From the IMG/VR virus record IMGVR_UViG_2558860170_000002: a stretch of 37,042 nt of DNA; one strand, 5' to 3'. Within the stretch, counting starts at the first letter, position 1, and each line of letters starts with the position of its first letter. Below the pieces are notes generated by a model that did no database searches, had not been told where the DNA came from, and saw nothing but the letters and a program-made list of their open reading frames with translations. Positions 18,423 through 37,042 of the stretch are shown one piece after another. This stretch comes from a virus (Duplodnaviria > Heunggongvirae > Uroviricota > Caudoviricetes). Position numbers and translations under genes: made by a program.

Positions 18423-21074
18423 ATGAGTGATATTTTCTCAGGAAGAGAATTATCAGTACAGTATAATGCTGATATTGGTAACAGAACACCACAGGGAGCA
18501 GGCAATGTAGTAATTAAACAGATTAATACTTTTCCAACCTTAACAATAAATTCAGAAGCAAATAATTTTGAAACGTATGATAGTGATTACAGGACAGTAC
18601 TACTATCTGATAAATCAGTAGCACCATTTGATATTGTAGTTAACTACCTACCTGATGATCCTACACATCAATTCTTGGATAATGCCGCTAAGTCTCAGCA
18701 GCTTTTCCAGATCATCATTCAGTACCAGATGAATAAGGATGAAAATACCATTACTTATGCGATGGTGAATGGTTATATCACCTCTTATAAGTTGGACGGT
18801 GATAAAGGTTCAGTAGTAACCAAGGCATACAGTTTTGCCCCACATGATGTGATCGCACGTGCAATGACCATTAACGCACTATCGCCAATCTATCAGGGGG
18901 ACTACGGTTTAGGTTCGAACACTACGGATGTACCTCAGTACTCACCATCAGTACCTACGGGTAACAGCTTCATCAAAGTACCATCATCTCAAGCAGGCAA
19001 TCCTGCCGGGGCGGATCTGATGGGAGTAGGGCTTGTAGATGGCACTACTGTAAGTTCTCTTGCGATGACAAAGACGGGTACTCTAAGTATCTATGCAAAG
19101 AACGCTACAACCGCCTGGACACGCATATATACCGCTACACAGATGGACGGGCGATACGTACCCCTTACACGTACCATCAACGGCCATGCACTCACGGCCA
19201 ATTTAGTACTGAACAGTGAAGATACAGGTTCAGTACCTGATACACGTACTGTGAATGGTAAGCCTCTAAGTGAGGATGTAGTACTTACCAGTACTGATAC
19301 CGGCTCTGTACCAGATACACGGACAGTTAATGGTCATGTACTCAGTGAAGATATAGTACTGAGTAGTGAAGATACAGGTTCAGTACCTGACACGCGTACA
19401 GTGAACGGTCATGTACTTAGTGAAAATGTAGTACTGAGTAGTGAAGATACAGGTTCAGTACCTGATACACGTATGGTCAACGGTCATGTACTCAGTGAGG
19501 ATGTAGTACTTACCAGTACTGATGTTGGCTTAGGGAAGGTTACAGATGATGCCCAGCTTACGATAGCAGGTAATCTAAGTGATCTGGGGGACGTGGAAGA
19601 AGCACGTATTAACCTTGCTGTTTACTCAATGGATGAAGTAGATGCAGAGGTAACGGCTTTAGCTGACAGTATTACTTCCCTTGATTCCGCTTCCATGAAG
19701 AAAGCGAGTAACCTTTCTGATCTATCCAGTCTCTCTACAGCACGTACTAACCTACAGGTGAACCGTTTGACTCAGGGTGCTACGTACACCGATCTGATGA
19801 GTAATGACCTGACTAACCGTATCCGAATTCAGGATAACGGGGCATGGGGTGCAAGTACTGGTACTGGATGGATTGCTTTAGGTATAGGTCAGGGGGGGAC
19901 AGGGGCTACAGATGCTTTGAGTGCTCGCCTAAACTTTCAGGTGGATCGCTTTAATCAAGGTAGTAATTTAACAACTATTAAATCCGCTGATTCTTCCGCT
20001 GCATTAGTGGTTTATGATGGAGGGCAATGGGGTTCAGCTACATATATTGCGGGTGCTTTCACTGGCTGGAAAGCATTAGCAATTCCGCAGGGCGGTACTG
20101 GTGTTAAGACTCAGGCTGAGTTATGGCCTGCGATTCGTCCTACGGGTGCAACTTCTTTAGCAGGAGATCCTGTCTCTGATTCTGACGCGACTACCAAACG
20201 CTGGGTTGAAAACTTGCTGAGTAGTCGTACTTCAGTTAGTCCTCAATGGGATGTTATTGCTTCTTCCCCTTCCTCTACGGCAATTGGTAGTTATGTAACT
20301 GGAGGGCGTATTCGTTCGATATGCAACATTGGTACATCAACTGAAATATCTGGTGGTTTTCGGGTTGGTAAAACGATGGGACAGACTGGACAGGCTGATC
20401 TCACCCTTTTTATTTCTGAAAATGGTGCAGAGGATAAACTATGGGGGCTAAAAGGGCCGACTGGAACGATCCTAACTGATGTTCAATCAGGATGGATGAC
20501 TAATACCGCTGTTTCGGGACCGACAGATGCCAATACCATCACCTTTAACGGTATGTATGCAGGGCCAGGTGACTCAGGTATTAACTATAGTGAAAAATAT
20601 TCCCCTTTATTGCACATGCAAAGATACCCAGGGGCAAATCGCTCTCAGCTTCAGATAGACGGTGGTGGTACTTTAAGAGTACGAGGCGGGAACGGTACAA
20701 CATGGTTTGGATGGTTAGTAATGCAAGCTCAAGGTACATCAGGTCGTGAGTTTAAAAGAGACATAACTCCAGCAAATCCAGTTGAAGCATTAGATCGGAT
20801 AATGTCACAAGATTTAGTAACGTTTATCTACAAGGATGATGAACAAGAAAGGGTTAGGTTTGGTGTTATCGCCGAAGATGCTGAGTTGACTGCTCCGCAG
20901 TACATTAAGCATGATGAAGAAACAGTTGAAATAGAAGGGGAGATTGTCACTCGTGATCATCCACGTGTTGATTTAAATCCAATAGTGATGGACTTGATGG
21001 GAGCTATTCAAGCCCAACAAGAAGAAATTAATCAGCTAAAAGATTTAGTACAACAGCTATTAAATAATAAATAA
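18423..21074 (+). CDS. tail fibre-like protein: major-tail-protein-like N-terminal domain, 25-aa tandem repeats, C-terminal intramolecular chaperone (peptidase S74-like) domain
   Basis: N-terminal about 150 aa is paralogous to the product of 21133-21606 (shared DIFSG...NTF...VNYLPDD..HQ.L). Five 25-aa repeats (TRTVNGHVLSEDVVLSSEDTGSVPD). The C-terminus SGREFKRDITP...ERVRFGVIAEDAE...NPIVMDLMGAIQAQQEEINQLK matches the S74 pattern SDxRxK...GxIAQE...coiled coil. Confidence 0.55.
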   Translation: MSDIFSGRELSVQYNADIGNRTPQGAGNVVIKQINTFPTLTINSEANNFETYDSDYRTVLLSDKSVAPFDIVVNYLPDDPTHQFLDNAAKSQQLFQIIIQYQMNKDENTITYAMVNGYITSYKLDGDKGSVVTKAYSFAPHDVIARAMTINALSPIYQGDYGLGSNTTDVPQYSPSVPTGNSFIKVPSSQAGNPAGADLMGVGLVDGTTVSSLAMTKTGTLSIYAKNATTAWTRIYTATQMDGRYVPLTRTINGHALTANLVLNSEDTGSVPDTRTVNGKPLSEDVVLTSTDTGSVPDTRTVNGHVLSEDIVLSSEDTGSVPDTRTVNGHVLSENVVLSSEDTGSVPDTRMVNGHVLSEDVVLTSTDVGLGKVTDDAQLTIAGNLSDLGDVEEARINLAVYSMDEVDAEVTALADSITSLDSASMKKASNLSDLSSLSTARTNLQVNRLTQGATYTDLMSNDLTNRIRIQDNGAWGASTGTGWIALGIGQGGTGATDALSARLNFQVDRFNQGSNLTTIKSADSSAALVVYDGGQWGSATYIAGAFTGWKALAIPQGGTGVKTQAELWPAIRPTGATSLAGDPVSDSDATTKRWVENLLSSRTSVSPQWDVIASSPSSTAIGSYVTGGRIRSICNIGTSTEISGGFRVGKTMGQTGQADLTLFISENGAEDKLWGLKGPTGTILTDVQSGWMTNTAVSGPTDANTITFNGMYAGPGDSGINYSEKYSPLLHMQRYPGANRSQLQIDGGGTLRVRGGNGTTWFGWLVMQAQGTSGREFKRDITPANPVEALDRIMSQDLVTFIYKDDEQERVRFGVIAEDAELTAPQYIKHDEETVEIEGEIVTRDHPRVDLNPIVMDLMGAIQAQQEEINQLKDLVQQLLNNK
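19167..19529 (+). repeat. 75-bp tandem repeat, about 4.8 copies, in frame within the tail fibre-like gene
   Basis: Unit boundaries read directly at 19167, 19242, 19317, 19392 and 19467; the units are closely similar. Confidence 0.8.
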
Positions 21075-21132: not shown

Positions 21133-21606
21133 ATGGCTATGGATATTTTTTCCGGTGCTAACCTTACTGTAGAAGTAGGTTCAAGTGCTGGTAAAACAGT
21201 TGCTACTGACTTTGTAGAAGTACCAGAGGTAAACACCTTCAGTACTTCAGGCTTTGAAAGTACTGTAATTAGCGTAAAAACATTCAATAATGCTTATGAT
21301 CGTAAGCTATTGGGTACTAAGTCAATCCCGGACATTTCTCTTGCAGTTAACTACTTACCAGATAATGCAGTACATCAGAATTTAGAACAACTTGCAGACG
21401 ATCAGAAACGTTGTCAGGTAAAACTAAGCTATTTTACCGATGCAACTAAAAAAGAAGGTTTCTTTGTAATTTATACCTGCTTTGTTTCAAGTACCACTAT
21501 CGGTGGTGATAAAGATGAAGTAGTAACTAAGACTTTCACCCTTGCAGTTGATGGTGAAGCAATTGATTCAGGTCTGATTACTCCAAAACCAGAATCGGGC
21601 GAATAA
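21133..21606 (+). CDS. putative major tail protein (157 aa)
   Basis: Sits immediately upstream of the chaperone and tape-measure genes and is followed by a strong terminator. Paralogous to the N-terminus of 18423-21074. Confidence 0.5.
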   Translation: MAMDIFSGANLTVEVGSSAGKTVATDFVEVPEVNTFSTSGFESTVISVKTFNNAYDRKLLGTKSIPDISLAVNYLPDNAVHQNLEQLADDQKRCQVKLSYFTDATKKEGFFVIYTCFVSSTTIGGDKDEVVTKTFTLAVDGEAIDSGLITPKPESGE

Positions 21607-21989: not shown

Positions 21990-22352
21990 ATGGTTAACAA
22001 AAGAGGCTTATCACCTGAAGAATACTTTAGTTTAGATCCTGATGTACTCAATATGCTTATGATCTACGATACTTTTATAGAACCATCCGGTACGCAGATT
22101 GAAATGATGAAACATGCGTACCAGTGTTACTACACCACTATCAGTAATGGCAACCTAACACCAGAAGCAAGGAAAAGTATCAAGGTACAGGATTTTGATT
22201 TTCTTGATGTGCTTAGTGATAGTACTAAGAGTACTTCAGAGAAAGCTGAAGAAAGAAAATTAAAAACTAAAGAGGCTCAATCCAATGATATTAAATCTAT
22301 AGGGGAGTTAATTAAATCTCAGGTATTAGGAAAGAAAAAGAATGGCAAATAA
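21990..22352 (+). CDS. putative tail assembly chaperone / hypothetical
   Basis: Assigned by position upstream of the tape measure gene. Confidence 0.3.
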   Translation: MVNKRGLSPEEYFSLDPDVLNMLMIYDTFIEPSGTQIEMMKHAYQCYYTTISNGNLTPEARKSIKVQDFDFLDVLSDSTKSTSEKAEERKLKTKEAQSNDIKSIGELIKSQVLGKKKNGK

Positions 22353-24555
22353 TAATAGAATACGTGTAGATATTACGGGTGATTCTTCCGGTTTACAGCG
22401 TGCTTTAAGGTCTGGTACTGAATCATTAGAGGAATTTGGTAGTACTGCTGGTGGCATTGTTGAAGAGTTCACAGGCCGAATAACTGGTATGGCTGGCGGG
22501 TTCGGTACTGCTATGACCGGGATCGCGGGTGCTGCGGCTATTGGTATTGGTGGCCTGGCAGCATTAGTAGAATCATCACGTGAATATGTGCGTGAAATGA
22601 ACCAGATCAGTAAGAGTACCGGATTGTCCGTGGTTCAGTTACAACAGCTATCAGCGGCGTTTAGTGGCCTCGGTCTTGAGATTGATAAGTTTGGTGATTT
22701 CAACAAGGATACCTTGGATAAGCTCGGTGATGCTTTTCGTGCTGGCGGTGGTGTATCCGATGATCTTAAAGAATATGGACTCAACCTACAGGACTATAAC
22801 AAGTACTTAAAACAGGCTGATGGTGGTATGCAGGCTGTGATCCACACCTTTTACGCCATGCGTGATGCAGGTAAATCACAGAGTGAAATAGTTAACGTAA
22901 TGGAAACGTTAGCCAGTGACTCAAGCCACATGATTAGTACTCTTCAGCAGTTCAATAATGAGGCTCAAGCTACAGCCTATATCCAGTCACAAAATGCTGA
23001 AGTAACTAATGATGCTGCTGAAAAATATGCTGAATTCGATAAAAACCTTGGGAAACTTACTACCAGCATTAAAGGTACTATTGCTGATGGCCTATCACCT
23101 TTAGTTAATGCCATGAACAGTGTCTATGATGCTGCAAATCAAAAACCTCACGAGGCAGGTTTGTTTGAAGATCTGAATGAACGTATTAAAACTTCCAAGG
23201 GTTCTCTACAGGATATGTTGGATATCTGGGAAAAATTACGTACAGCAGGGGCATTAAACTACCAGGGTGCAGCACTCAATACTGGCATCATGGATGATAA
23301 GGGCAACAAGGGTAATGAGTTCGCTCAGGCTAAGGCACGTTTAGAAGAACTGGCAAACAACCTAAAGTCCGATGTTGCGGTTGCTACCGCTCCTACTGGC
23401 GGATGGGTTGATCAGGCAAAAGAAGCTGAAGATGCAGCGAAGAAGTTAGAACAACAACGTAAACAGGCAGAAGCGGCACAAAAGGCGGCAGATGCAAAAC
23501 GCCTACAGGCTCAACGTAATCTGGAAGCTGCTCTTGCTCAAGTTGGGGAAGATGGTTTTCAGGTACGTCTACAGCAGTTCGACAGACAACAAAAGGCACT
23601 TCTTAAAACCATCACCGATAGTGCTCAAGTACTCGGTATCAATCCTGATGAAATGCTAAAGAACGCTACTGCATATGGTGCTAAACAACGTACTGATTTA
23701 CTGAATTCAATGGTTGGTTATCAAGATCCTAATCAGGGTCTGAAAGATACCAATGCTCTTATTGGTTCCGGTCTACTCAATGACAATCAGAAGGGGTATC
23801 TGGCACAGCAACAGAATCAGCGTATCAATGGTGGTAATCCATTAGCCTATAACGATACCGATCAGAAGTTGAAAGATAACGCTGATGCTATGAATGCTGA
23901 ACTTCAGCAGAATGAGTTGTTGCTGAAAGGCCATGAGGACTATGAGAAACGTAAAGCTGAGATCACGGCAAAGTACAATGCACAGGCCATCCAAATCAGT
24001 AACCAGAATGCACAGGATCAGTTAAGTATCTTCTCAAGTACTGCACAGTCACTATCACAGGGCATGGTTGATGCGTTTGGGGAAAGTAGTGGGGCTGCAC
24101 AAGCTGCATTTACCCTAAGTAAGAGCATAAGCATTGCACAGACAGTACTTTCAATTCAGTCAGCATTGGCCCAAGCACTCGCTACCCCTTGGCCAGCTTC
24201 ATTGGCAAACTATGCACAAGTACTTTCACTTGGTATGTCGATTATTAGTACTGCAAAGGGTGCTGCTGCTGGTCAGTTCCATGGCGGGGTAGATGAACTA
24301 CCAGCAAGTTATGACAACAAATCATTTGTACTTAAGCAGGGCGAGAGAGTGGTGCAGCCTGAAGCGAATAAGAAATTAACAGCATTCTTGGATAAACAAG
24401 AAGGTGGAAGTACTTCAGGTGATATTACCGTTAACGCACCATTGATCATCCAGGGTGATGTAGCTGATGATGACAAGAAATTTAATGAGATGCTTAAGAA
24501 ACACGCCAATAGTGTTTCTCAAGCTGTGAGAAGTAGTCAAAAACGTAATACATAA
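22342..24555 (+). CDS. tail tape measure protein
   Basis: 737 aa, Ala/Gln-rich with long coiled-coil segments and Gly-rich hydrophobic stretches, in the canonical position. Confidence 0.7.
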   Translation: MANNNRIRVDITGDSSGLQRALRSGTESLEEFGSTAGGIVEEFTGRITGMAGGFGTAMTGIAGAAAIGIGGLAALVESSREYVREMNQISKSTGLSVVQLQQLSAAFSGLGLEIDKFGDFNKDTLDKLGDAFRAGGGVSDDLKEYGLNLQDYNKYLKQADGGMQAVIHTFYAMRDAGKSQSEIVNVMETLASDSSHMISTLQQFNNEAQATAYIQSQNAEVTNDAAEKYAEFDKNLGKLTTSIKGTIADGLSPLVNAMNSVYDAANQKPHEAGLFEDLNERIKTSKGSLQDMLDIWEKLRTAGALNYQGAALNTGIMDDKGNKGNEFAQAKARLEELANNLKSDVAVATAPTGGWVDQAKEAEDAAKKLEQQRKQAEAAQKAADAKRLQAQRNLEAALAQVGEDGFQVRLQQFDRQQKALLKTITDSAQVLGINPDEMLKNATAYGAKQRTDLLNSMVGYQDPNQGLKDTNALIGSGLLNDNQKGYLAQQQNQRINGGNPLAYNDTDQKLKDNADAMNAELQQNELLLKGHEDYEKRKAEITAKYNAQAIQISNQNAQDQLSIFSSTAQSLSQGMVDAFGESSGAAQAAFTLSKSISIAQTVLSIQSALAQALATPWPASLANYAQVLSLGMSIISTAKGAAAGQFHGGVDELPASYDNKSFVLKQGERVVQPEANKKLTAFLDKQEGGSTSGDITVNAPLIIQGDVADDDKKFNEMLKKHANSVSQAVRSSQKRNT

Positions 24556-27229: not shown

Positions 27230-27320
27230 TAGACTGGCCCCCTGAATCTCCAGACAACCAGTATCACTTAAATAAGTGATAGTCTTAATACTAGTTTTTA
27301 GACTAGTCATTGGAGTACAG

Positions 27321-27686
27321 ATGATTGATGTCTTAGGGCCGGAGAAACGCAGACGGCGTACCACACAGGAAAAGATCGCAATTGTTCAGCAGAGCTTTGA
27401 ACCGGGGATGACGGTCTCCCTCGTTGCCCGGCAACATGGTGTAGCAGCCAGCCAGTTATTTCTCTGGCGTAAGCAATACCAGGAAGGAAGTCTTACTGCT
27501 GTCGCCGCCGGAGAACAGGTTGTTCCTGCCTCTGAACTTGCTGCCGCCATGAAGCAGATTAAAGAACTCCAGCGCCTGCTCGGCAAGAAAACGATGGAAA
27601 ATGAACTCCTCAAAGAAGCCGTTGAATATGGACGGGCAAAAAAGTGGATAGCGCACGCGCCCTTATTGCCCGGGGATGGGGAGTAA
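27321..27686 (+). CDS. insC: IS2 OrfA (InsC)
   Basis: Identical translation to copy A. Confidence 0.85.
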
Positions 27687-28549
27687 GCTTAGTCAGCCGT
27701 TGTCTCCGGGTGTCGCGTGCGCAGTTGCACGTCATTCTCAGACGAACCGATGACTGGATGGATGGCCGCCGCAGTCGTCACACTGATGATACGGATGTGC
27801 TTCTCCGTATACACCATGTTATCGGAGAGCTGCCCACGTATGGTTATCGTCGGGTATGGGCGCTGCTTCGCAGACAGGCAGAACTTGATGGTATGCCTGC
27901 GATCAATGCCAAACGTGTTTACCGGATCATGCGCCAGAATGCGCTGTTGCTTGAGCGAAAACCTGCTGTACCGCCATCGAAACGGGCACATACAGGCAGA
28001 GTGGCCGTGAAAGAAAGCAATCAGCGATGGTGCTCTGACGGGTTCGAGTTCTGCTGTGATAACGGAGAGAGACTGCGTGTCACGTTCGCGCTGGACTGCT
28101 GTGATCGTGAGGCACTGCACTGGGCGGTGACTACCGGCGGCTTCAACAGTGAAACAGTACAGGACGTCATGCTGGGAGCGGTGGAACGCCGCTTCGGCAA
28201 CGATCTTCCGTCGTCTCCAGTGGAGTGGCTGACGGATAATGGTTCATGCTACCGGGCTAATGAAACACGCCAGTTCGCCCGGATGTTGGGACTTGAACCG
28301 AAGAACACGGCGGTGCGGAGTCCGGAGAGTAACGGAATAGCAGAGAGCTTCGTGAAAACGATAAAGCGTGACTACATCAGTATCATGCCCAAACCAGACG
28401 GGTTAACGGCAGCAAAGAACCTTGCAGAGGCGTTCGAGCATTATAACGAATGGCATCCGCATAGTGCGCTGGGTTATCGCTCGCCACGGGAATATCTGCG
28501 GCAGCGGGCTTGTAATGGGTTAAGTGATAACAGATGTCTGGAAATATAG
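27644..28549 (+). CDS. insD: IS2 transposase OrfB (InsD)
   Basis: Identical translation to copy A. Confidence 0.9.
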
Positions 28550-30880: not shown

Positions 30881-32049
<1,169 letters not shown>

Positions 32050-32076
32050 TGGAGCACCTGTGTTGTTCTGAGGTGA

Positions 32077-32607
<531 letters not shown>

Positions 32608-32764: not shown

Positions 32765-33061
32765 ATGGCACAGGGATTACAATGTTGGAATGCAGCGGGT
32801 GTATTAGTAGTAGATCTGACTGATTATAACATACGTTTTATGGGTACTTATACTGTCAAGGCTACTTCTGCACAGACCTATACTGTATCAGTACCAAATA
32901 TGAAAACTACAGGCTGGTTTGTACACTATGCCCCCGCCAGTGATACCTTTAATGAGTGGTCAGCCTTTTGTAATAATGGGTCATTTACTGCGGTTTATTT
33001 GCCAACATATGCACCGTTAGCTGGTAACTACACTTTTAACGTATATAAGTGGACGGCGTAA
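32765..33061 (+). CDS. hypothetical tail-associated protein (98 aa)
   Basis: Its N-terminus is paralogous to the next gene (MA.G...N.AG.L..D.T). Confidence 0.4.
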   Translation: MAQGLQCWNAAGVLVVDLTDYNIRFMGTYTVKATSAQTYTVSVPNMKTTGWFVHYAPASDTFNEWSAFCNNGSFTAVYLPTYAPLAGNYTFNVYKWTA

Positions 33062-33062
33062 G

Positions 33063-33719
33063 ATGGCAGGTTTCGAGGTATATAATTCAGCGGGTGCACT
33101 GACTATAGATAGTACTAACAAGTCGATAATGACGGGTGCAGTAAAGGCCATGGGAAATCTAACTGATACGGGATACTACACAGGCTTTACCTGTGCCTTC
33201 GGTAATGGTGGATCGCTCGGTTTCGTTATGCCATCAGTAGTAGCTAACAGGAACACAACACAGTACTGGTTCCAGATACAGAAAGACGGGGCATGGTGTT
33301 TCCCTGGTGCCTATATGTTCCAGCCTGGCATGGGCAGGTTCATGACAAGTAGTCACACGGCTACCCCCACATCTGGTTTTCTTGATGTGTTCAGTGAAGA
33401 AGGTACTTTAATCTGGTCTGCTGCATCAGCGGCAACAATGCCACGTATCAGGGGATTTTTGACAGCACCTGCGGCTACCGATCTCAGTACTGCCATTACG
33501 GTAACGTCTCCAGTAGCTGATCCCTGGTTCTGCTGGTCACAATGTCCGGGGAACATATCAGATGATGGTACAGTAATTGGGTACTCTGGTCTGGTTATCA
33601 GGCGTAATTCCAGTACTTCATTCAGTCTACAGTACGTTTCAAAGAACCAGAAAACCTACCGCCAGGCAATGGGGAATAATGGTATCCAGATAGCATTGGC
33701 GACATTTACAGGGTATTAA
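33063..33719 (+). CDS. hypothetical tail-associated protein (218 aa)
   Basis: Paralogous N-terminus to 32765-33061; downstream of the J-like gene. Confidence 0.45.
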   Translation: MAGFEVYNSAGALTIDSTNKSIMTGAVKAMGNLTDTGYYTGFTCAFGNGGSLGFVMPSVVANRNTTQYWFQIQKDGAWCFPGAYMFQPGMGRFMTSSHTATPTSGFLDVFSEEGTLIWSAASAATMPRIRGFLTAPAATDLSTAITVTSPVADPWFCWSQCPGNISDDGTVIGYSGLVIRRNSSTSFSLQYVSKNQKTYRQAMGNNGIQIALATFTGY

Positions 33720-33756
33720 TACAATAACAATAACAATAACAATAACAATAACAACA
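33717..33756. repeat. hexanucleotide microsatellite (AATAAC), about 5-6 copies
   Basis: Direct reading: tAATAC AATAAC AATAAC AATAAC AATAAC AATAAC AACAAAGGG, ending 13 bp upstream of the ATG at 33770. Confidence 0.9.
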
Positions 33757-33769
33757 AAGGGATTTCAGT

Positions 33770-34042
33770 ATGGATATCGGTGCTATTTTAGCTCTTGTTA
33801 TTTCTGGATGCGTATTCCTTTATACTATCTTTAGAGATAATACAAAGGATACGAATGATCTATTAACTCGCGTTGCTACTCTTGAAACTACCATTGCTGT
33901 ACTGGAAAGTAGTATTTCCCGTATTGAGGATGATCAGGATAAGATGAGAGATACACTAAGTAAACTGGAAACACAAATCCATGAACTTGATGTTAAGATT
34001 GAAAGGATTATTGCAATTCTTCAGCAGAAACAACGACCATAA
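33770..34042 (+). CDS. small membrane-anchored coiled-coil protein (holin- or i-spanin-like)
   Basis: N-terminal transmembrane helix (ILALVISGCVFLYTIF) then a coiled coil of about 60 aa; adjacent to the endolysin. Confidence 0.4.
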   Translation: MDIGAILALVISGCVFLYTIFRDNTKDTNDLLTRVATLETTIAVLESSISRIEDDQDKMRDTLSKLETQIHELDVKIERIIAILQQKQRP

Positions 34043-34085
34043 AAAAAGGCATAGTATGTCATTCGTACTATGCCTTTTCTTTATT
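34041..34085. terminator. bidirectional rho-independent terminator
   Basis: A7, then GGCATAGTA stem, 9-nt loop, TACTATGCC, then TTTTCTTTATT. Lies between the convergent genes at 33770-34042 and 34081-34530. Confidence 0.65.
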
Positions 34086-34530
34086 TGTTTTTAAGTACTG
34101 CAATCATGGAATTCACACGGTTTGGTGTCTGCCTGTACCATAGAGAACACTTAGCCTGTTTAATTGCTTCAAGGTAATCATGTGCTTTCAGGGCTGCTAA
34201 CATCTTACGGAATTTCTTCACCCCGCCAATACCTAACTGGAAGGTCATGATAATAATAAAATCATTCCAGTCATCGGGAAGATTTAACCCTAATGTCTGT
34301 ACCTGCATAATTGTTTTGGCTAAATCGCGAGATAGTAACTTGTCTGCTTCGCTTTCAGTAATGCCAGTACTAAAATCTTCTCCCGCCTGAATTAAGTGAC
34401 CATATCCAATAGTACTACATCCTAAACTATCAGCATATGGATAGAATTTCCCATTTCTGAAGTACTTCAAATTTGCCTGATACTCTTTAGTACCTTCATA
34501 TTCTTTTAATCGTGTTTTTAAATCGCTCAT
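34081..34530 (-). CDS. endolysin, T4-type lysozyme (glycoside hydrolase family 24)
   Basis: E...D...TIGYGH catalytic region and C-terminal SLWYRQTPNRVNSMI, which closely resembles T4 lysozyme SRWYNQTPNRAKRVI. Confidence 0.8.
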   Translation of the reverse strand: MSDLKTRLKEYEGTKEYQANLKYFRNGKFYPYADSLGCSTIGYGHLIQAGEDFSTGITESEADKLLSRDLAKTIMQVQTLGLNLPDDWNDFIIIMTFQLGIGGVKKFRKMLAALKAHDYLEAIKQAKCSLWYRQTPNRVNSMIAVLKNK

Positions 34531-34566
34531 TTACTAAATACCTATAATGAATTTATAGGAATATTT

Positions 34567-35001
34567 ATGATGAGTGAATGGAAATACTCGGATGATTGGA
34601 GCGAGGAGGAAATGTTATCCGGTGAATATGCTGGTTTCGTTTATATCTTTCAGTTTGAGGATGGTTCTAATTATGTCGGTGCTAAGCAAATCTATCAGCG
34701 GGTTAAGGATGCGAGAAAGCTAAAGCCCACTTCAAAGGAAAATGGCTGGCGTGAGTACCTCAGTAGTTCCAATGTCGTTAAAAACAAAATTGAAAATGGT
34801 GAACAGTACTCAAAAACGATTCTATGGTGCTTCGCAACTATGCGAGAGGTAATGATTGTAGAGGCAATACTGATCCTTCATCAGATGCTTAAACCGGAAT
34901 GTTTGAATCTGGCAATGATGAGTAAGATTAGATCACCAAATGCAAAGGATAAAAAAAGACTACTCGGAATAGTACAGGAACTATTGGAGTACTTGAATTG
35001 A
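34567..35001 (+). CDS. hypothetical protein, possible GIY-YIG-like motif
   Basis: GFVYIF...(9 aa)...YVG resembles the GIY...YIG spacing; downstream Arg and Glu are present. Weak. Confidence 0.3.
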   Translation: MMSEWKYSDDWSEEEMLSGEYAGFVYIFQFEDGSNYVGAKQIYQRVKDARKLKPTSKENGWREYLSSSNVVKNKIENGEQYSKTILWCFATMREVMIVEAILILHQMLKPECLNLAMMSKIRSPNAKDKKRLLGIVQELLEYLN

Positions 35002-35010
35002 GGTAAATAT

Positions 35011-35589
35011 ATGGCAAGTGGAATAAATGGGATTGGTAGTATAAGGAACTATATACAAACGCAGGGAGTTAGATTAAATAATCAATTCCAGAATGAAATA
35101 ATTAAACGTTCCAAGCTACTATCCCAAAGAATGCAGGGTGATTTGAATAATAGCGTTGACCGTGGGGCAGTGGGCTTTACTCAACGTTCCATCCTTTTCT
35201 TCTATAGAAAGGTTGGGAGAAATTCAGTTACATCGACCATCATGGTTAAAGATATTCAGGCTAAGTACCTTTATCAAGTACTGGTACAGCCAAAGGCAAT
35301 TGATAAGTTTATACCTACTTCATCTACAAGATTAACTAAGCAGGGCAACATTTCAGGACTGAAAAAGAATCTTTTAAGTGAACGATATAAGGTAGTGAAG
35401 GGTAAGAATGGTAAAGAACGATTAATTGATACCGCAAAGAAAGATACCAAGAAGAAAACCAAACGTGTAATTGGCTTACGTGAGAAGAAACAACGTCGCC
35501 TTATCTATGACTTCTATAAGGAAGCCAATGATGGTGTAAGGGTAATTATGAGCGGTATTCAGGGAACATTCAGGATAAGTAGACAATGA
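35011..35589 (+). CDS. hypothetical protein (192 aa, basic C-terminus)
   Basis: Intact ORF with backbone-like composition. Confidence 0.4.
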   Translation: MASGINGIGSIRNYIQTQGVRLNNQFQNEIIKRSKLLSQRMQGDLNNSVDRGAVGFTQRSILFFYRKVGRNSVTSTIMVKDIQAKYLYQVLVQPKAIDKFIPTSSTRLTKQGNISGLKKNLLSERYKVVKGKNGKERLIDTAKKDTKKKTKRVIGLREKKQRRLIYDFYKEANDGVRVIMSGIQGTFRISRQ

Positions 35590-35897
35590 ATTTTGAGCAA
35601 CATTATGGTGATTTAATAAGCAAGATTAAGCTAAATGGCATGACACCAGATGGTAATAGTATGCCAATTAACAAATGTTTTCTTGATAAGAAATTTCAAA
35701 AGGTCGTTAAGAAAAGTAATTATCAGATTGATAGCTATATGAACGTTATTTATGAGAAGAAGAAAGATTTCAAAGTTGGTGAAGTACTTGAATGGGAATT
35801 ACAGGGTGAAAAGATGCCTGTATTTCTAATTGAGAGTAAAAAGCTCTTTGTGAAGGGTAAACATTTTTGGGTATATGCCGTGGGGATTATTGAATGA
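35586..35897 (+). CDS. hypothetical protein (103 aa)
   Basis: Intact ORF overlapping its neighbours by 4 bp (translationally coupled arrangement). Confidence 0.4.
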   Translation: MNFEQHYGDLISKIKLNGMTPDGNSMPINKCFLDKKFQKVVKKSNYQIDSYMNVIYEKKKDFKVGEVLEWELQGEKMPVFLIESKKLFVKGKHFWVYAVGIIE

Positions 35898-36187
35898 TTA
35901 GTATATTGATTGAGTTTCTGAAGTCAGGATTGGATTTTTTCATTAAGAAGAAAACTATTGAACAGGAAGTAAAGAAAACGAATGTAGAAGGGCAGATTGA
36001 AACGAATAAAGAAGAGATTGAAAAGGTAACATTCCACTGGCGTAATGCCCTCGGTTTTGTACTAACCCTTATCATTCTCTATAACTGGATCATAGTACCA
36101 GTACTTGATGCTTTTGGAATTATTGTGATCCAAGTTCCATTAGGACAACTTTTGCAAGTGCTATTGATTATGGTTGGTGGAAGCTGA
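35894..36187 (+). CDS. putative holin-like membrane protein
   Basis: Charged N-terminal region followed by two hydrophobic helices at the C-terminus; lies in the lysis region. Confidence 0.35.
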   Translation: MISILIEFLKSGLDFFIKKKTIEQEVKKTNVEGQIETNKEEIEKVTFHWRNALGFVLTLIILYNWIIVPVLDAFGIIVIQVPLGQLLQVLLIMVGGS

Positions 36188-36247
36188 AAGATTTTTCCTT
36201 TAATATGTGTTTTGAGTTAATAAAATAGCAATCTAAGGATTTGATTT

Positions 36248-37042
36248 ATGAGTGATGCAATTACTACAGCAGCAATAAAAAAATTGTATGGACTATCCGC
36301 TGGGCAATGTAATATTTGCCGAACTTCTCTTTTTAAAGAGCAGGTTCACATCGGACAAATGGCTCATGTAATAGCCAAAAGCCCAAAAGGACCAAGGGGC
36401 GATGACCTGTTAGCAAATGACAATTCTTATGAAAATCTTATCCTGCTTTGTGCAAATGATCATATTCTTGTTGATAGAGATCCATTCACTTATACAGTAG
36501 AAAAATTGCATCAAATCAAAAGTGAACATGAGGCTTATATACAGGGTGCAACCGATAATACATTATTTTCAGATAAAAAAAGACAGTCAGATGTGGACTT
36601 TTTAAACGCTTACTTCCACTTTACACCGTTTGCGAGGGTACGTTCATTAGTTGAAACTTTACCTAATTCTTTTCACATCAATCTTCTTATTTTTGGAGAT
36701 CAGTTTGATAGTATTTTAAGGGATTTTCCAGCGAGCTATCCTTTAAATGATAAATTACTCCACGGTCATTTCCAAAGTTTTATTGATTCGTATAAAAATA
36801 TTGATTTTATCATATCTGGACATTTGCCGATTTCCGATAATAGAAACATTCAGGTGTTTGGTGGTGCGAATCATAATCTTCTTTGTCATTTCAATTATGA
36901 TGAGCTACCATCCGATAAAGCACTGATAATAGAACAAGATTTGATTTCACATAAAATATCTCTTCTTAATGCTTATGAAGGTCTTATAAATTACCTTAGA
37001 GCTTATTACCCTGAGGTGGAAATTTACTCTCCTATTCTATGA
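36248..37042 (+). CDS. HNH-domain protein with uncharacterised C-terminal domain of about 170 aa
   Basis: N-terminus C-N-I-C...HIGQMAHVIAKSPKGPRGDDLLANDNSYENLILLCANDH fits C-x2-C...H...N...C-x2-H. The gene is very AT-rich with a single GTAC in 795 bp, and ends exactly at the window edge with a stop codon. Confidence 0.5.
   Translation: MSDAITTAAIKKLYGLSAGQCNICRTSLFKEQVHIGQMAHVIAKSPKGPRGDDLLANDNSYENLILLCANDHILVDRDPFTYTVEKLHQIKSEHEAYIQGATDNTLFSDKKRQSDVDFLNAYFHFTPFARVRSLVETLPNSFHINLLIFGDQFDSILRDFPASYPLNDKLLHGHFQSFIDSYKNIDFIISGHLPISDNRNIQVFGGANHNLLCHFNYDELPSDKALIIEQDLISHKISLLNAYEGLINYLRAYYPEVEIYSPIL

What the first reader, a model, noticed from the sequence alone, without database searches (positions are those of the whole stretch)
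34567..35001. Possible GIY-YIG-like motif in a lysis-region ORF
GFVYIF followed nine residues later by YVG resembles the GIY...YIG signature with plausible downstream Arg and Glu. This is a weak call on a short motif.
Basis: inference. Interest (0 to 1): 0.2.

Follow-up and report, generated by a model that had tools for sequence, protein, structure and literature searches.

The report
Bare GIY-YIG nuclease in prophage lysis module
The flagged ORF is a real 144-residue nuclease domain of the GIY-YIG (SegE-like) type in the lysis gene cluster of a decayed Shigella sonnei prophage; databases already label it so, and the only unusual point is that it is a stably inherited, catalytic-domain-only gene rather than a roaming homing endonuclease.

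Summary
The observation and the interpretation both hold. ORF 34567-35001 (+, 144 aa) matches Pfam PF19835 SegE_GIY-YIG (E 2e-16, 60.7 bits, cut-off 25). A confident AlphaFold model (pLDDT 89) finds the I-TevI catalytic domain, PD-T4-3, UvrC and T4 EndoII as its four best solved folds. Tyr26, Tyr36-x-Gly38, Glu99 and Asn114 are invariant in 54 distinct orthologues; Arg45 is kept in 89%.

UniRef already names this exact protein a SegE-like GIY-YIG protein, so the call is correct but ordinary.

What I add: the protein is the catalytic domain only, with no DNA-binding module. It occupies one fixed slot, next to the lysozyme gene and upstream of a holin-like gene, in 60 of 61 related prophage contigs. 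It is the most constrained gene of its module (median dN/dS 0.08). It is co-inherited with its flanks in 462 of 463 close haplotype pairs. I found one precise cassette swap and one lineage with an internal deletion.

I read it as a resident, active DNA endonuclease made with the lysis genes, not a mobile homing endonuclease. Its substrate and role are inferred, not shown.

The parts
34567..35001 (+). ORF of 144 aa: stand-alone SegE-type GIY-YIG nuclease domain (core about aa 20-116) plus a C-terminal helix (aa 126-143)
34633..34650 (+). 'GIY' box: G23 F24 V25 Y26 I27 F28. Tyr26 is the predicted catalytic tyrosine.
   Evidence: Read from the sequence. F24, V25 and Y26 are invariant in 54 distinct orthologues.
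34672..34680 (+). 'YIG' box: Y36 V37 G38
   Evidence: Read from the sequence. Y36 and G38 are invariant in 54 orthologues.
34699..34707 (+). Basic patch R45-V46-K47, the candidate counterpart of I-TevI Arg27
   Evidence: R45 is kept in 89% and K47 in 98% (one Arg) of 54 orthologues. In wider relatives position 45 is often Gly while a Lys or Arg stays at position 47 (sequences). Which residue plays the Arg27 role is inference.
34861..34863 (+). Glu99, the predicted metal-binding glutamate (counterpart of I-TevI Glu75)
   Evidence: Invariant in 54 orthologues. It lies in helix 92-106. The Glu99-Asn114 spacing of 15 equals Glu75-Asn90 in I-TevI (sequence).
34906..34908 (+). Asn114, counterpart of I-TevI Asn90
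   Evidence: Invariant in 54 orthologues.
34531..34566 (.). 36-bp spacer between the divergent lysozyme and GIY-YIG start codons. It contains the palindrome CCTATAA (34541-34547) N5 TTATAGG (34553-34559). It probably carries both ribosome-binding sites and a shared control site.
   Evidence: Sequence. Across 81 distinct spacers from related loci the best inverted repeat has a median of 11 matched bases, against 7 in shuffles (spacer sequences listed). Function is not tested.
34081..34530 (-). Phage lysozyme (149 aa), head-to-head partner of the GIY-YIG gene
   Evidence: PF00959 E 1e-11. Its sequence divergence tracks that of the GIY-YIG gene better than any other neighbour does (Spearman 0.61).
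34041..34081 (.). Strong hairpin (16-nt arms) between the stop of the 90-aa gene and the stop of the lysozyme gene: a bidirectional terminator-like site
35011..35589 (+). 192-aa gene immediately downstream: a probable virion neck protein with an HK97 gp10-like fold, not a DNA-binding partner of the nuclease
35586..35897 (+). 103-aa gene of unknown function; its start overlaps the stop of the 192-aa gene
   Evidence: No family hit.
35894..36187 (+). 97-aa holin-like membrane protein, last gene of the GIY-p192-p103-p97 string
   Evidence: PF11351 GTA_holin_3TM 25.0 bits (cut-off 24.8). phrog_3427 holin E 1.9e-4.
33770..34042 (+). 90-aa protein whose C-terminal two-thirds (about aa 25-89) give only weak coiled-coil-type matches; its N-terminal ~20 residues look hydrophobic by eye. 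Possibly a spanin or another lysis accessory.
   Evidence: phrog_739 Rz-like spanin E 2.7e-5. Only weak coiled-coil Pfam hits. PF10805 weak in the precomputed list.

Best explanation
The ORF encodes an active, metal-dependent DNA endonuclease that consists only of a SegE-type GIY-YIG catalytic domain. Inferred chemistry, by analogy with I-TevI and other GIY-YIG enzymes (established knowledge): Tyr26 and Tyr36 with a basic residue (Arg45 or Lys47) position and activate the attacking water, and Glu99 holds the single Mg2+. There is no DNA-recognition module. It descends from the lineage of phage free-standing homing endonucleases. In this family of enterobacterial siphovirus-type prophages it has become a fixed, vertically inherited gene of the late/lysis module. 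It lies head-to-head with the lysozyme gene across a palindromic 36-bp spacer and heads the string GIY - neck protein - p103 - holin-like protein. Because it has no specificity domain and sits among lysis genes, I infer that it cuts DNA with little sequence specificity late in the cycle, when phage genomes are already being packaged. The likely substrate is host DNA or unpackaged or branched DNA, in the manner of T4 EndoII or a debranching nuclease. Shown here: domain identity, fold, conserved catalytic residues, fixed position, purifying selection. Inferred: catalytic activity, timing of expression, substrate and benefit to the phage.
Against: No activity, expression or substrate data exist. 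The I-TevI catalytic domain alone is a poor enzyme (my recollection of the literature), so a bare domain may need oligomerisation or a partner that I did not find. The central Arg is not strictly conserved: Gly in 4 of 54 orthologues and in many wider relatives. The promoter scan was no better than chance, so 'late, with the lysis genes' rests on gene order only. A non-specific nuclease in a temperate phage with unmodified DNA is a risk to the phage itself. One precise cassette swap shows the gene can still move. The dN/dS pairs are not independent, and IMG/VR contigs may over-sample a few lineages.
Confidence: 0.5

Rival explanations
1. It is still a selfish free-standing homing endonuclease of the Seg type. 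It cuts the equivalent slot of related phages that carry a different allele or none, and it spreads by recombinational repair.
For: Its nearest characterised kin are Seg-type homing endonucleases (Pfam name; phrog_7363 'homing endonuclease' E 9e-14; T4-like relatives next to nrdC/nrdD). L030 and L071 share 92% nucleotide identity on both flanks up to the start and stop codons, yet carry GIY-YIG genes only 33% identical, a cassette replacement. The slot lies between conserved genes.
Against: It has no DNA-binding domain. The slot is occupied in 60 of 61 contigs, and no clean empty site was seen, only an internal 282-bp deletion. 462 of 463 close pairs show co-inheritance with the flanks. dN/dS of 0.08 is lower than for structural neighbours, which is unlike a gene cycling through invasion and decay.
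Confidence: 0.2
2. It is a prophage cargo gene that protects the lysogen, a defence or superinfection-exclusion nuclease expressed from the prophage. It would be comparable to the GIY-YIG defence protein PD-T4-3.
Against: PADLOC gives only a weak 'homing endonuclease' hit (4.4e-5) and no defence model. The protein has no sensor or modification-reading domain. It is a constant part of the module rather than variable cargo. S. sonnei is clonal, so intactness there says little.
Confidence: 0.15
3. It is a structure-specific nuclease that resolves branched replication or recombination intermediates before packaging, the role of T4 gp49, T7 gp3 or eukaryotic SLX1.
Against: The SLX1 matches are weak. 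Deletion alleles exist. The gene lies with the lysis genes, not the replication or packaging genes. I did not check whether the prophage also has RusA, Rap or RuvC. This reading overlaps with the best explanation and differs only in substrate.
Confidence: 0.1
4. It is a catalytically dead remnant kept for a structural or regulatory purpose, or merely not yet decayed.
For: Bare domain; central Arg variable; host prophage is defective.
Against: All other catalytic residues are invariant over 38-100% identity, and dN/dS is 0.08.
Confidence: 0.05

Closest known systems
Pfam PF19835 (SegE_GIY-YIG) / PHROG 447: short SegE-like GIY-YIG proteins of phages
   Same: Direct profile matches. Same length class (PHROG 447 profile 148 positions). 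Same motifs. Ounavirinae members (165-171 aa) are also single-domain and sit in a fixed slot. hhalign to this family gives probability 94%.
   Different: In Ounavirinae the gene lies in a DNA-metabolism block: exonuclease, MazG, nrdA. Here it lies in the lysis block of a temperate siphovirus-type prophage. No member has a tested function, and many are mislabelled 'NAD synthetase'.
T4-type Seg free-standing homing endonucleases (SegE and relatives such as the Bp7, RB16 and S16 proteins)
   Same: Homologous N-terminal catalytic domain: 32-47% identity over part of the sequence and TM 0.81 over 149 alignment columns.
   Different: Those proteins are 271-361 aa with C-terminal DNA-binding modules and lie in nrd regions. 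Their sporadic occurrence is established knowledge and was not tested here. This protein stops after the catalytic domain and is nearly always present in its lineage.
I-TevI catalytic domain (PDB 1ln0, 1mk0)
   Different: 16% identity. No significant sequence or profile match. I-TevI is intron-encoded and tethered to a zinc finger and helix-turn-helix DNA-binding domain.
T4 endonuclease II (DenA, PDB 2wsh)
   Different: 13% identity and no sequence match. EndoII is an early gene of a phage with modified DNA. This gene sits in a late/lysis block of a temperate phage with no known DNA modification.
PD-T4-3 GIY-YIG defence nuclease (PDB 9u75)
   Different: 248 aa with an extra domain, and no PADLOC model match here.

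Membership tests
GIY-YIG nuclease superfamily | 'GIY' box with a conserved Tyr in the first beta-strand | tested here: met
   G23-F-V-Y26. Y26 is invariant in 54 orthologues. Definition taken from PMC1564403.
GIY-YIG nuclease superfamily | 'YIG' box (Tyr-x-Gly) about 10 residues downstream | tested here: met
   Y36-V-G38, with nine residues between the tyrosines. Y36 and G38 are invariant.
GIY-YIG nuclease superfamily | Conserved Arg in the centre of the domain | tested here: inconclusive
   This protein has R45, but only 89% of orthologues keep it (Gly in 4). K47 is kept in 98% and may substitute. I could not read the model coordinates to see which residue faces the active site.
GIY-YIG nuclease superfamily | Conserved Glu (metal ligand) in the C-terminal helix | tested here: met
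   E99 in helix 92-106, invariant.
GIY-YIG nuclease superfamily | Asn of motif E (homing endonuclease/UvrC lineage) | tested here: met
   N114 is invariant, 15 residues after the Glu as in I-TevI.
GIY-YIG nuclease superfamily | GIY-YIG alpha/beta fold | tested here: met
   [not shown]
GIY-YIG nuclease superfamily | Profile match to a curated GIY-YIG model | tested here: met
   PF19835 60.7 bits against cut-off 25. PF01541 itself gave no hit.
GIY-YIG nuclease superfamily | Metal-dependent phosphodiester cleavage | not testable with these tools
   Needs purified protein.
Seg-type free-standing homing endonuclease | N-terminal GIY-YIG catalytic domain | tested here: met
Seg-type free-standing homing endonuclease | C-terminal DNA-binding module (NUMOD, helix-turn-helix or zinc finger) that gives site specificity | tested here: not met
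   144 aa with no second Pfam domain and one helix after the core. The downstream 192-aa gene is not a detached DNA-binding module: it shows no similarity to long-form tails and has an HK97 gp10-like fold.
Seg-type free-standing homing endonuclease | Sporadic presence or absence among otherwise collinear genomes | tested here: not met
   Present in 60 of 61 contigs. 462 of 463 close haplotype pairs co-inherit it with the flanks. The only losses are internal deletions. One cassette swap was seen.
Seg-type free-standing homing endonuclease | Cleaves the allele that lacks it and is copied in with flanking markers | not testable with these tools
   Needs cleavage assays and mixed infections.
T4 EndoII (DenA) family | Sequence or profile similarity to EndoII | tested here: not met
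   [not shown]
PD-T4-3 or other catalogued defence nuclease | Match to a PADLOC defence model | tested here: not met
   Only PDLC03702 'homing endonuclease', E 4.4e-5.

The most novel reading that the evidence does not exclude
Short SegE-like GIY-YIG proteins are not failed homing endonucleases. They would be a distinct, widespread class of resident phage nucleases. In this prophage family one of them would be a true component of the lysis programme: co-regulated with the endolysin through the palindromic head-to-head spacer, and clearing host or unpackaged DNA, or attacking rival phage DNA, at the moment of lysis.
Probability: 0.15. Interest if true: 0.5.

Novelty: already known. Interest (0 to 1): 0.2.

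Why it matters
At the level of the finding it matters little. The motif is real, and UniRef already labels this exact protein a SegE-like GIY-YIG protein, so this is routine annotation.

Three modest points come out of the follow-up. First, hundreds of phage genomes label this family 'NAD synthetase', which looks like a propagated error. Second, automatic 'homing endonuclease' labels on such short proteins are probably also misleading, because this one behaves like a fixed, strongly constrained gene. Third, no member of the short class has a tested function, and it is common: 101 of the 150 nearest relatives are this size. A simple biochemical and genetic test on any member would therefore fill a real, if small, gap in phage biology.

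Tried and rejected
- **NCBIfam**: no hit.
- **PDB sequence search** with the family profile: only chance hits to PUF proteins, E 0.15.
- **hhalign of the family profile against I-TevI**: not significant, probability 0.07%. The link to I-TevI therefore rests on fold and motif order, not sequence.
- **Megablast of 33000-37042** against phages and plasmids: nothing. Against complete E. coli genomes: only 260 bp.
- **'Sporadic mobile gene'**: rejected on occupancy and co-inheritance.
- **Promoter and terminator scan**: promoter-like sites no more frequent than in shuffles. Only the hairpin at 34041-34081 stands out.
- **The search for related loci** with an alignment of mid-distance relatives failed because no stretch was conserved enough. 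With P0034 alone it found nothing.
- **Literature searches** for PF19835, for GIY-YIG with prophage and Shigella sonnei, and for GIY-YIG with endolysin, holin and prophage found nothing on this protein class.
- **Active-site geometry**: I could not inspect model coordinates, so the arrangement of residues in the active site is not verified.

Full report
**1. The observation**

The ORF is real and has the stated coordinates: 34567-35001, + strand, 144 aa (DNA). The peptide reads ...G23-F-V-Y26-I-F28-QFEDGSN-Y36-V-G38-AKQIYQ-R45-V-K47... Further on come E99 in the stretch VEAILIL and N114 in the stretch CLNLA. Nine residues separate the two tyrosines. I-TevI has ten (its sequence was checked against PDB 1mk0 and 1ln0).

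The motif is not a chance resemblance. Pfam PF19835 (SegE_GIY-YIG) matches residues 5-104 with E 2.1e-16 and 60.7 bits, against a curated cut-off of 25. PHROGs gives phrog_447 (E 2.5e-14; a 148-position profile annotated 'NAD synthetase') and phrog_7363 'homing endonuclease' (E 9e-14).

**2. Fold and catalytic residues**

I aligned 22 homologues of 57-97% identity from the large protein collection; all are 142-148 aa. With this alignment AlphaFold2 gives a confident model: pLDDT 89.4, pTM 0.86. Its elements are a beta-hairpin at 23-41, helix 69-76, strand 81-89, helix 92-106 and a C-terminal helix 126-143.

- Foldseek against viral models finds SegE-like proteins. The Bp7 protein of 271 aa gives TM 0.81 over 149 alignment columns. 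So the whole 144-aa chain, including the last helix, corresponds to the N-terminal module of the long enzymes.
- Sequence-only comparisons with solved structures fail. The link to I-TevI is therefore fold plus motif order.

I extracted the gene from 62 related loci. It is intact (141-154 aa) in 59, cut by a contig end in one, and reduced to a deletion remnant in two. Among 54 distinct full-length orthologues (38-100% identity to the window protein), these residues are invariant: F24, V25, Y26, F30, Y36, G38, K40, W61, Y64, S67, S68, V71, I75, L86, E99, I103, N114 and K120. R45 is kept in 89% and K47 in 98%.

The superfamily is defined by GIY, YIG, a central Arg and a C-terminal Glu (PMC1564403). 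This protein meets that definition. The one reservation is that the central basic residue may be Lys47 rather than Arg45 in part of the family.

**3. Where it lies**

The exact protein is encoded on the Shigella sonnei 53G chromosome (HE616528.1) and on hundreds of other S. sonnei assemblies. It sits in a prophage next to mipA, an aldo-keto reductase gene, an aldose epimerase gene and a glyceraldehyde-3-phosphate dehydrogenase gene.

The window is that prophage. It is siphovirus-type:
- small terminase 10138-10683
- large terminase 12372-13832
- portal 14374-15882
- capsid-protease fusion 15830-17674
- tape measure 22342-24555

It is broken by an IS21-family element (5300-7269) and three IS3-family elements (11012-12285, 27276-28549, 30881-32085). 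Two of these split a tail-tip gene that is a single 1100-aa ORF in relatives.

Around the finding the order is:
- a 90-aa protein with only weak coiled-coil-type matches (33770-34042; weak spanin-like hit)
- a strong hairpin (34041-34081)
- a PF00959 lysozyme on the opposite strand (34081-34530)
- a 36-bp spacer
- the GIY-YIG gene
- a 192-aa gene
- a 103-aa gene
- a 97-aa holin-like gene (PF11351, just above cut-off)

The last four are packed with 9 bp or 4-bp overlaps between them.

**4. Is it a roaming homing endonuclease?**

In T4-like phages the homologous domain heads proteins of 271-361 aa in nrd regions, and their tails look NUMOD-like by eye. The window protein is different in architecture and in behaviour.

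- *Occupancy.* All 20 IMG/VR contigs found through the downstream 192-aa gene carry the GIY-YIG gene in the same slot. So do 60 of 61 usable contigs found through the holin-like gene, two Phytobacter genomes, and a more distant lineage. In that lineage the 192-aa and 103-aa genes sit elsewhere, yet lysozyme(-), GIY and the holin-like gene stay together.
- *Co-inheritance.* In 87 distinct four-gene haplotypes, its divergence tracks the lysozyme best (Spearman 0.61). It tracks the 192-aa gene (0.13) and the holin-like gene (0.25) much less. Of 463 haplotype pairs whose two flanking genes are both >=85% identical, 462 also have a GIY-YIG gene >=85% identical.
- *Selection.* Median Nei-Gojobori dN/dS is 0.082 over 327 pairs with dS between 0.1 and 1.5. 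The neighbours give 0.187 (lysozyme), 0.137 (p192), 0.243 (p103) and 0.197 (p218).
- *Exceptions.* L072 and L073 carry an in-frame 282-bp deletion that removes the catalytic core. L030 and L071 are 92% identical in DNA right up to the start and stop codons, but their GIY-YIG genes are only 33% identical, a precise cassette replacement.

So the gene can be lost or swapped, but rarely. Caveats: the pairs are not independent, and IMG/VR sampling is uneven.

**5. The wider class**

A profile search of 1.84 billion representative proteins finds 410 relatives at E<=1e-3. Of the best 150, 101 are 100-175 aa and 28 are longer than 250 aa.

Short members are common in sequenced lytic phages: 349 records match one such member. 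In Felixounavirus and Kolesnikvirus a 165-171-aa PF19835 protein (97-100 bits) overlaps the end of an exodeoxyribonuclease gene. It sits in the same block in both genera, from primase/helicase to nrdA, and is annotated 'NAD synthetase'. Its relationship to the window family is direct: hhalign probability 94%.

Single-domain SegE-like nucleases that stay put are therefore a general phenomenon and not a peculiarity of this prophage.

**6. How it most likely works**

Shown: a GIY-YIG fold with the catalytic tyrosines, glutamate and asparagine under strong constraint; no specificity domain; a fixed place in a late/lysis gene block.

Inferred from established GIY-YIG enzymology (I-TevI, Eco29kI, Hpy188I, UvrC; my knowledge, not tested here): a one-metal mechanism. 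Glu99 binds Mg2+, a tyrosine activates the water, and a basic residue (Arg45 or Lys47) stabilises the transition state.

The gene lacks a recognition module and sits among lysis genes. I therefore favour a low-specificity or structure-specific DNA endonuclease acting late on unprotected DNA, with T4 EndoII as the nearest functional analogy (confidence about 0.5 for the whole statement). Domain identity taken alone I would put above 0.9.

The rivals are continued homing (0.2), lysogen defence (0.15), a debranching role (0.1) and a dead relic (0.05).

**7. Novelty**

UniRef already calls this exact sequence 'Putative endonuclease SegE-like GIY-YIG domain-containing protein'; NCBI calls it hypothetical. 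The finding is therefore correct and already known at the annotation level. I found no paper on this protein class. Its constant association with a lysis module, its constraint and the symmetric spacer are small additions, not surprises.

Noticed in passing
window 34531-34566, and the same spacer in loci L010-L186: The very short spacer between the divergent lysozyme and GIY-YIG start codons is a near-palindrome. In many loci it reads CAT-(N)-AAATACCT ... AGGTATTT-(N)-ATG, so both genes have mirror-image ribosome-binding regions around an AT-rich centre. The window copy is CCTATAA-N5-TTATAGG. Median best inverted repeat is 11 matched bases against 7 in shuffles, over 81 distinct spacers. It may be a shared operator or a bidirectional promoter.
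   Followed up: partly
window 36248-37042 (264-aa ORF; stop ends at the window edge): An HNH nuclease domain at the N-terminus resembles CBASS SAVED-HNH effectors (4e-23), PADLOC candidate system PDC-M68A (2e-21) and Shedu SduA (1.6e-9). The C-terminal 160 aa are unassigned. It is a likely prophage-borne defence gene just past the lysis block. It is present in only some related contigs.
   Followed up: partly
[not shown]
   Followed up: partly
window 5300-7269, 11012-12285, 27276-28549, 30881-32085: Four insertion sequences: one IS21-family (IstA/IstB) and three IS3-family, two of which are inverted copies of the same element. They raise local G+C to 0.51-0.54 against about 0.37 for the prophage. 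They split the 1100-aa tail-tip gene into 171-, 783- and 167-aa pieces, so the prophage is defective.
   Followed up: yes
L072 5847-5996 and L073 5848-5967 (IMG/VR contigs 3300011848_000032 and 3300011818_000026): Alleles with an in-frame 282-bp internal deletion that removes the whole catalytic core of the GIY-YIG gene but keeps both ends. L073 has an additional frameshift.
   Followed up: yes
L030 6001-6435 versus L071 5539-5990: A precise cassette swap. The flanks are 92% identical in DNA up to the start and stop codons, yet the GIY-YIG genes are only 33% identical in protein. This was the only such case among 463 close haplotype pairs.
   Followed up: yes
L187 2932-3429 (phage UAB_Phi87) and L188 2947-3462 (phage phiEa104); PHROG 447: Short PF19835 GIY-YIG proteins are annotated 'NAD synthetase' in many phage records and in PHROGs. 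Pfam gives 97-100 bits to SegE_GIY-YIG and no other Pfam family matched, so the name looks like a propagated error.
   Followed up: partly
window 533-1087 and 2134-2877: Two HNH endonuclease genes lie upstream of the small terminase gene (phrog_59 E 2e-28; phrog_8048 E 2e-11). HNH genes near terminase genes are a known arrangement in cos-type phages (my recollection; not examined here).
   Followed up: no
window 18423-21074 and 21133-21606: An 883-aa ORF has an N-terminus (aa 2-150) matching major tail protein phrog_158 and a remainder matching tail-fibre families. It is followed by a second, plain 157-aa major tail protein of the same PHROG.
   Followed up: no
L175 and L184 (IMG/VR contigs 2847085930_000003 and 2871755987_000002): In these two lineages the lysozyme gene is on the same strand as the GIY-YIG gene; in L184 the two matches are only 7 nt apart. 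The lysozyme gene has therefore been inverted at least once in this phage group.
   Followed up: no
P0028 (305 aa) and P0030 (300 aa), relatives from the representative search: Some close relatives (E 1e-46 to 1e-49) carry an N-terminal extension of about 155 aa, rich in Cys/His pairs that look like zinc-binding motifs, in front of the same short GIY-YIG module. I did not check whether these are real fusions or gene-calling run-ons.
   Followed up: no
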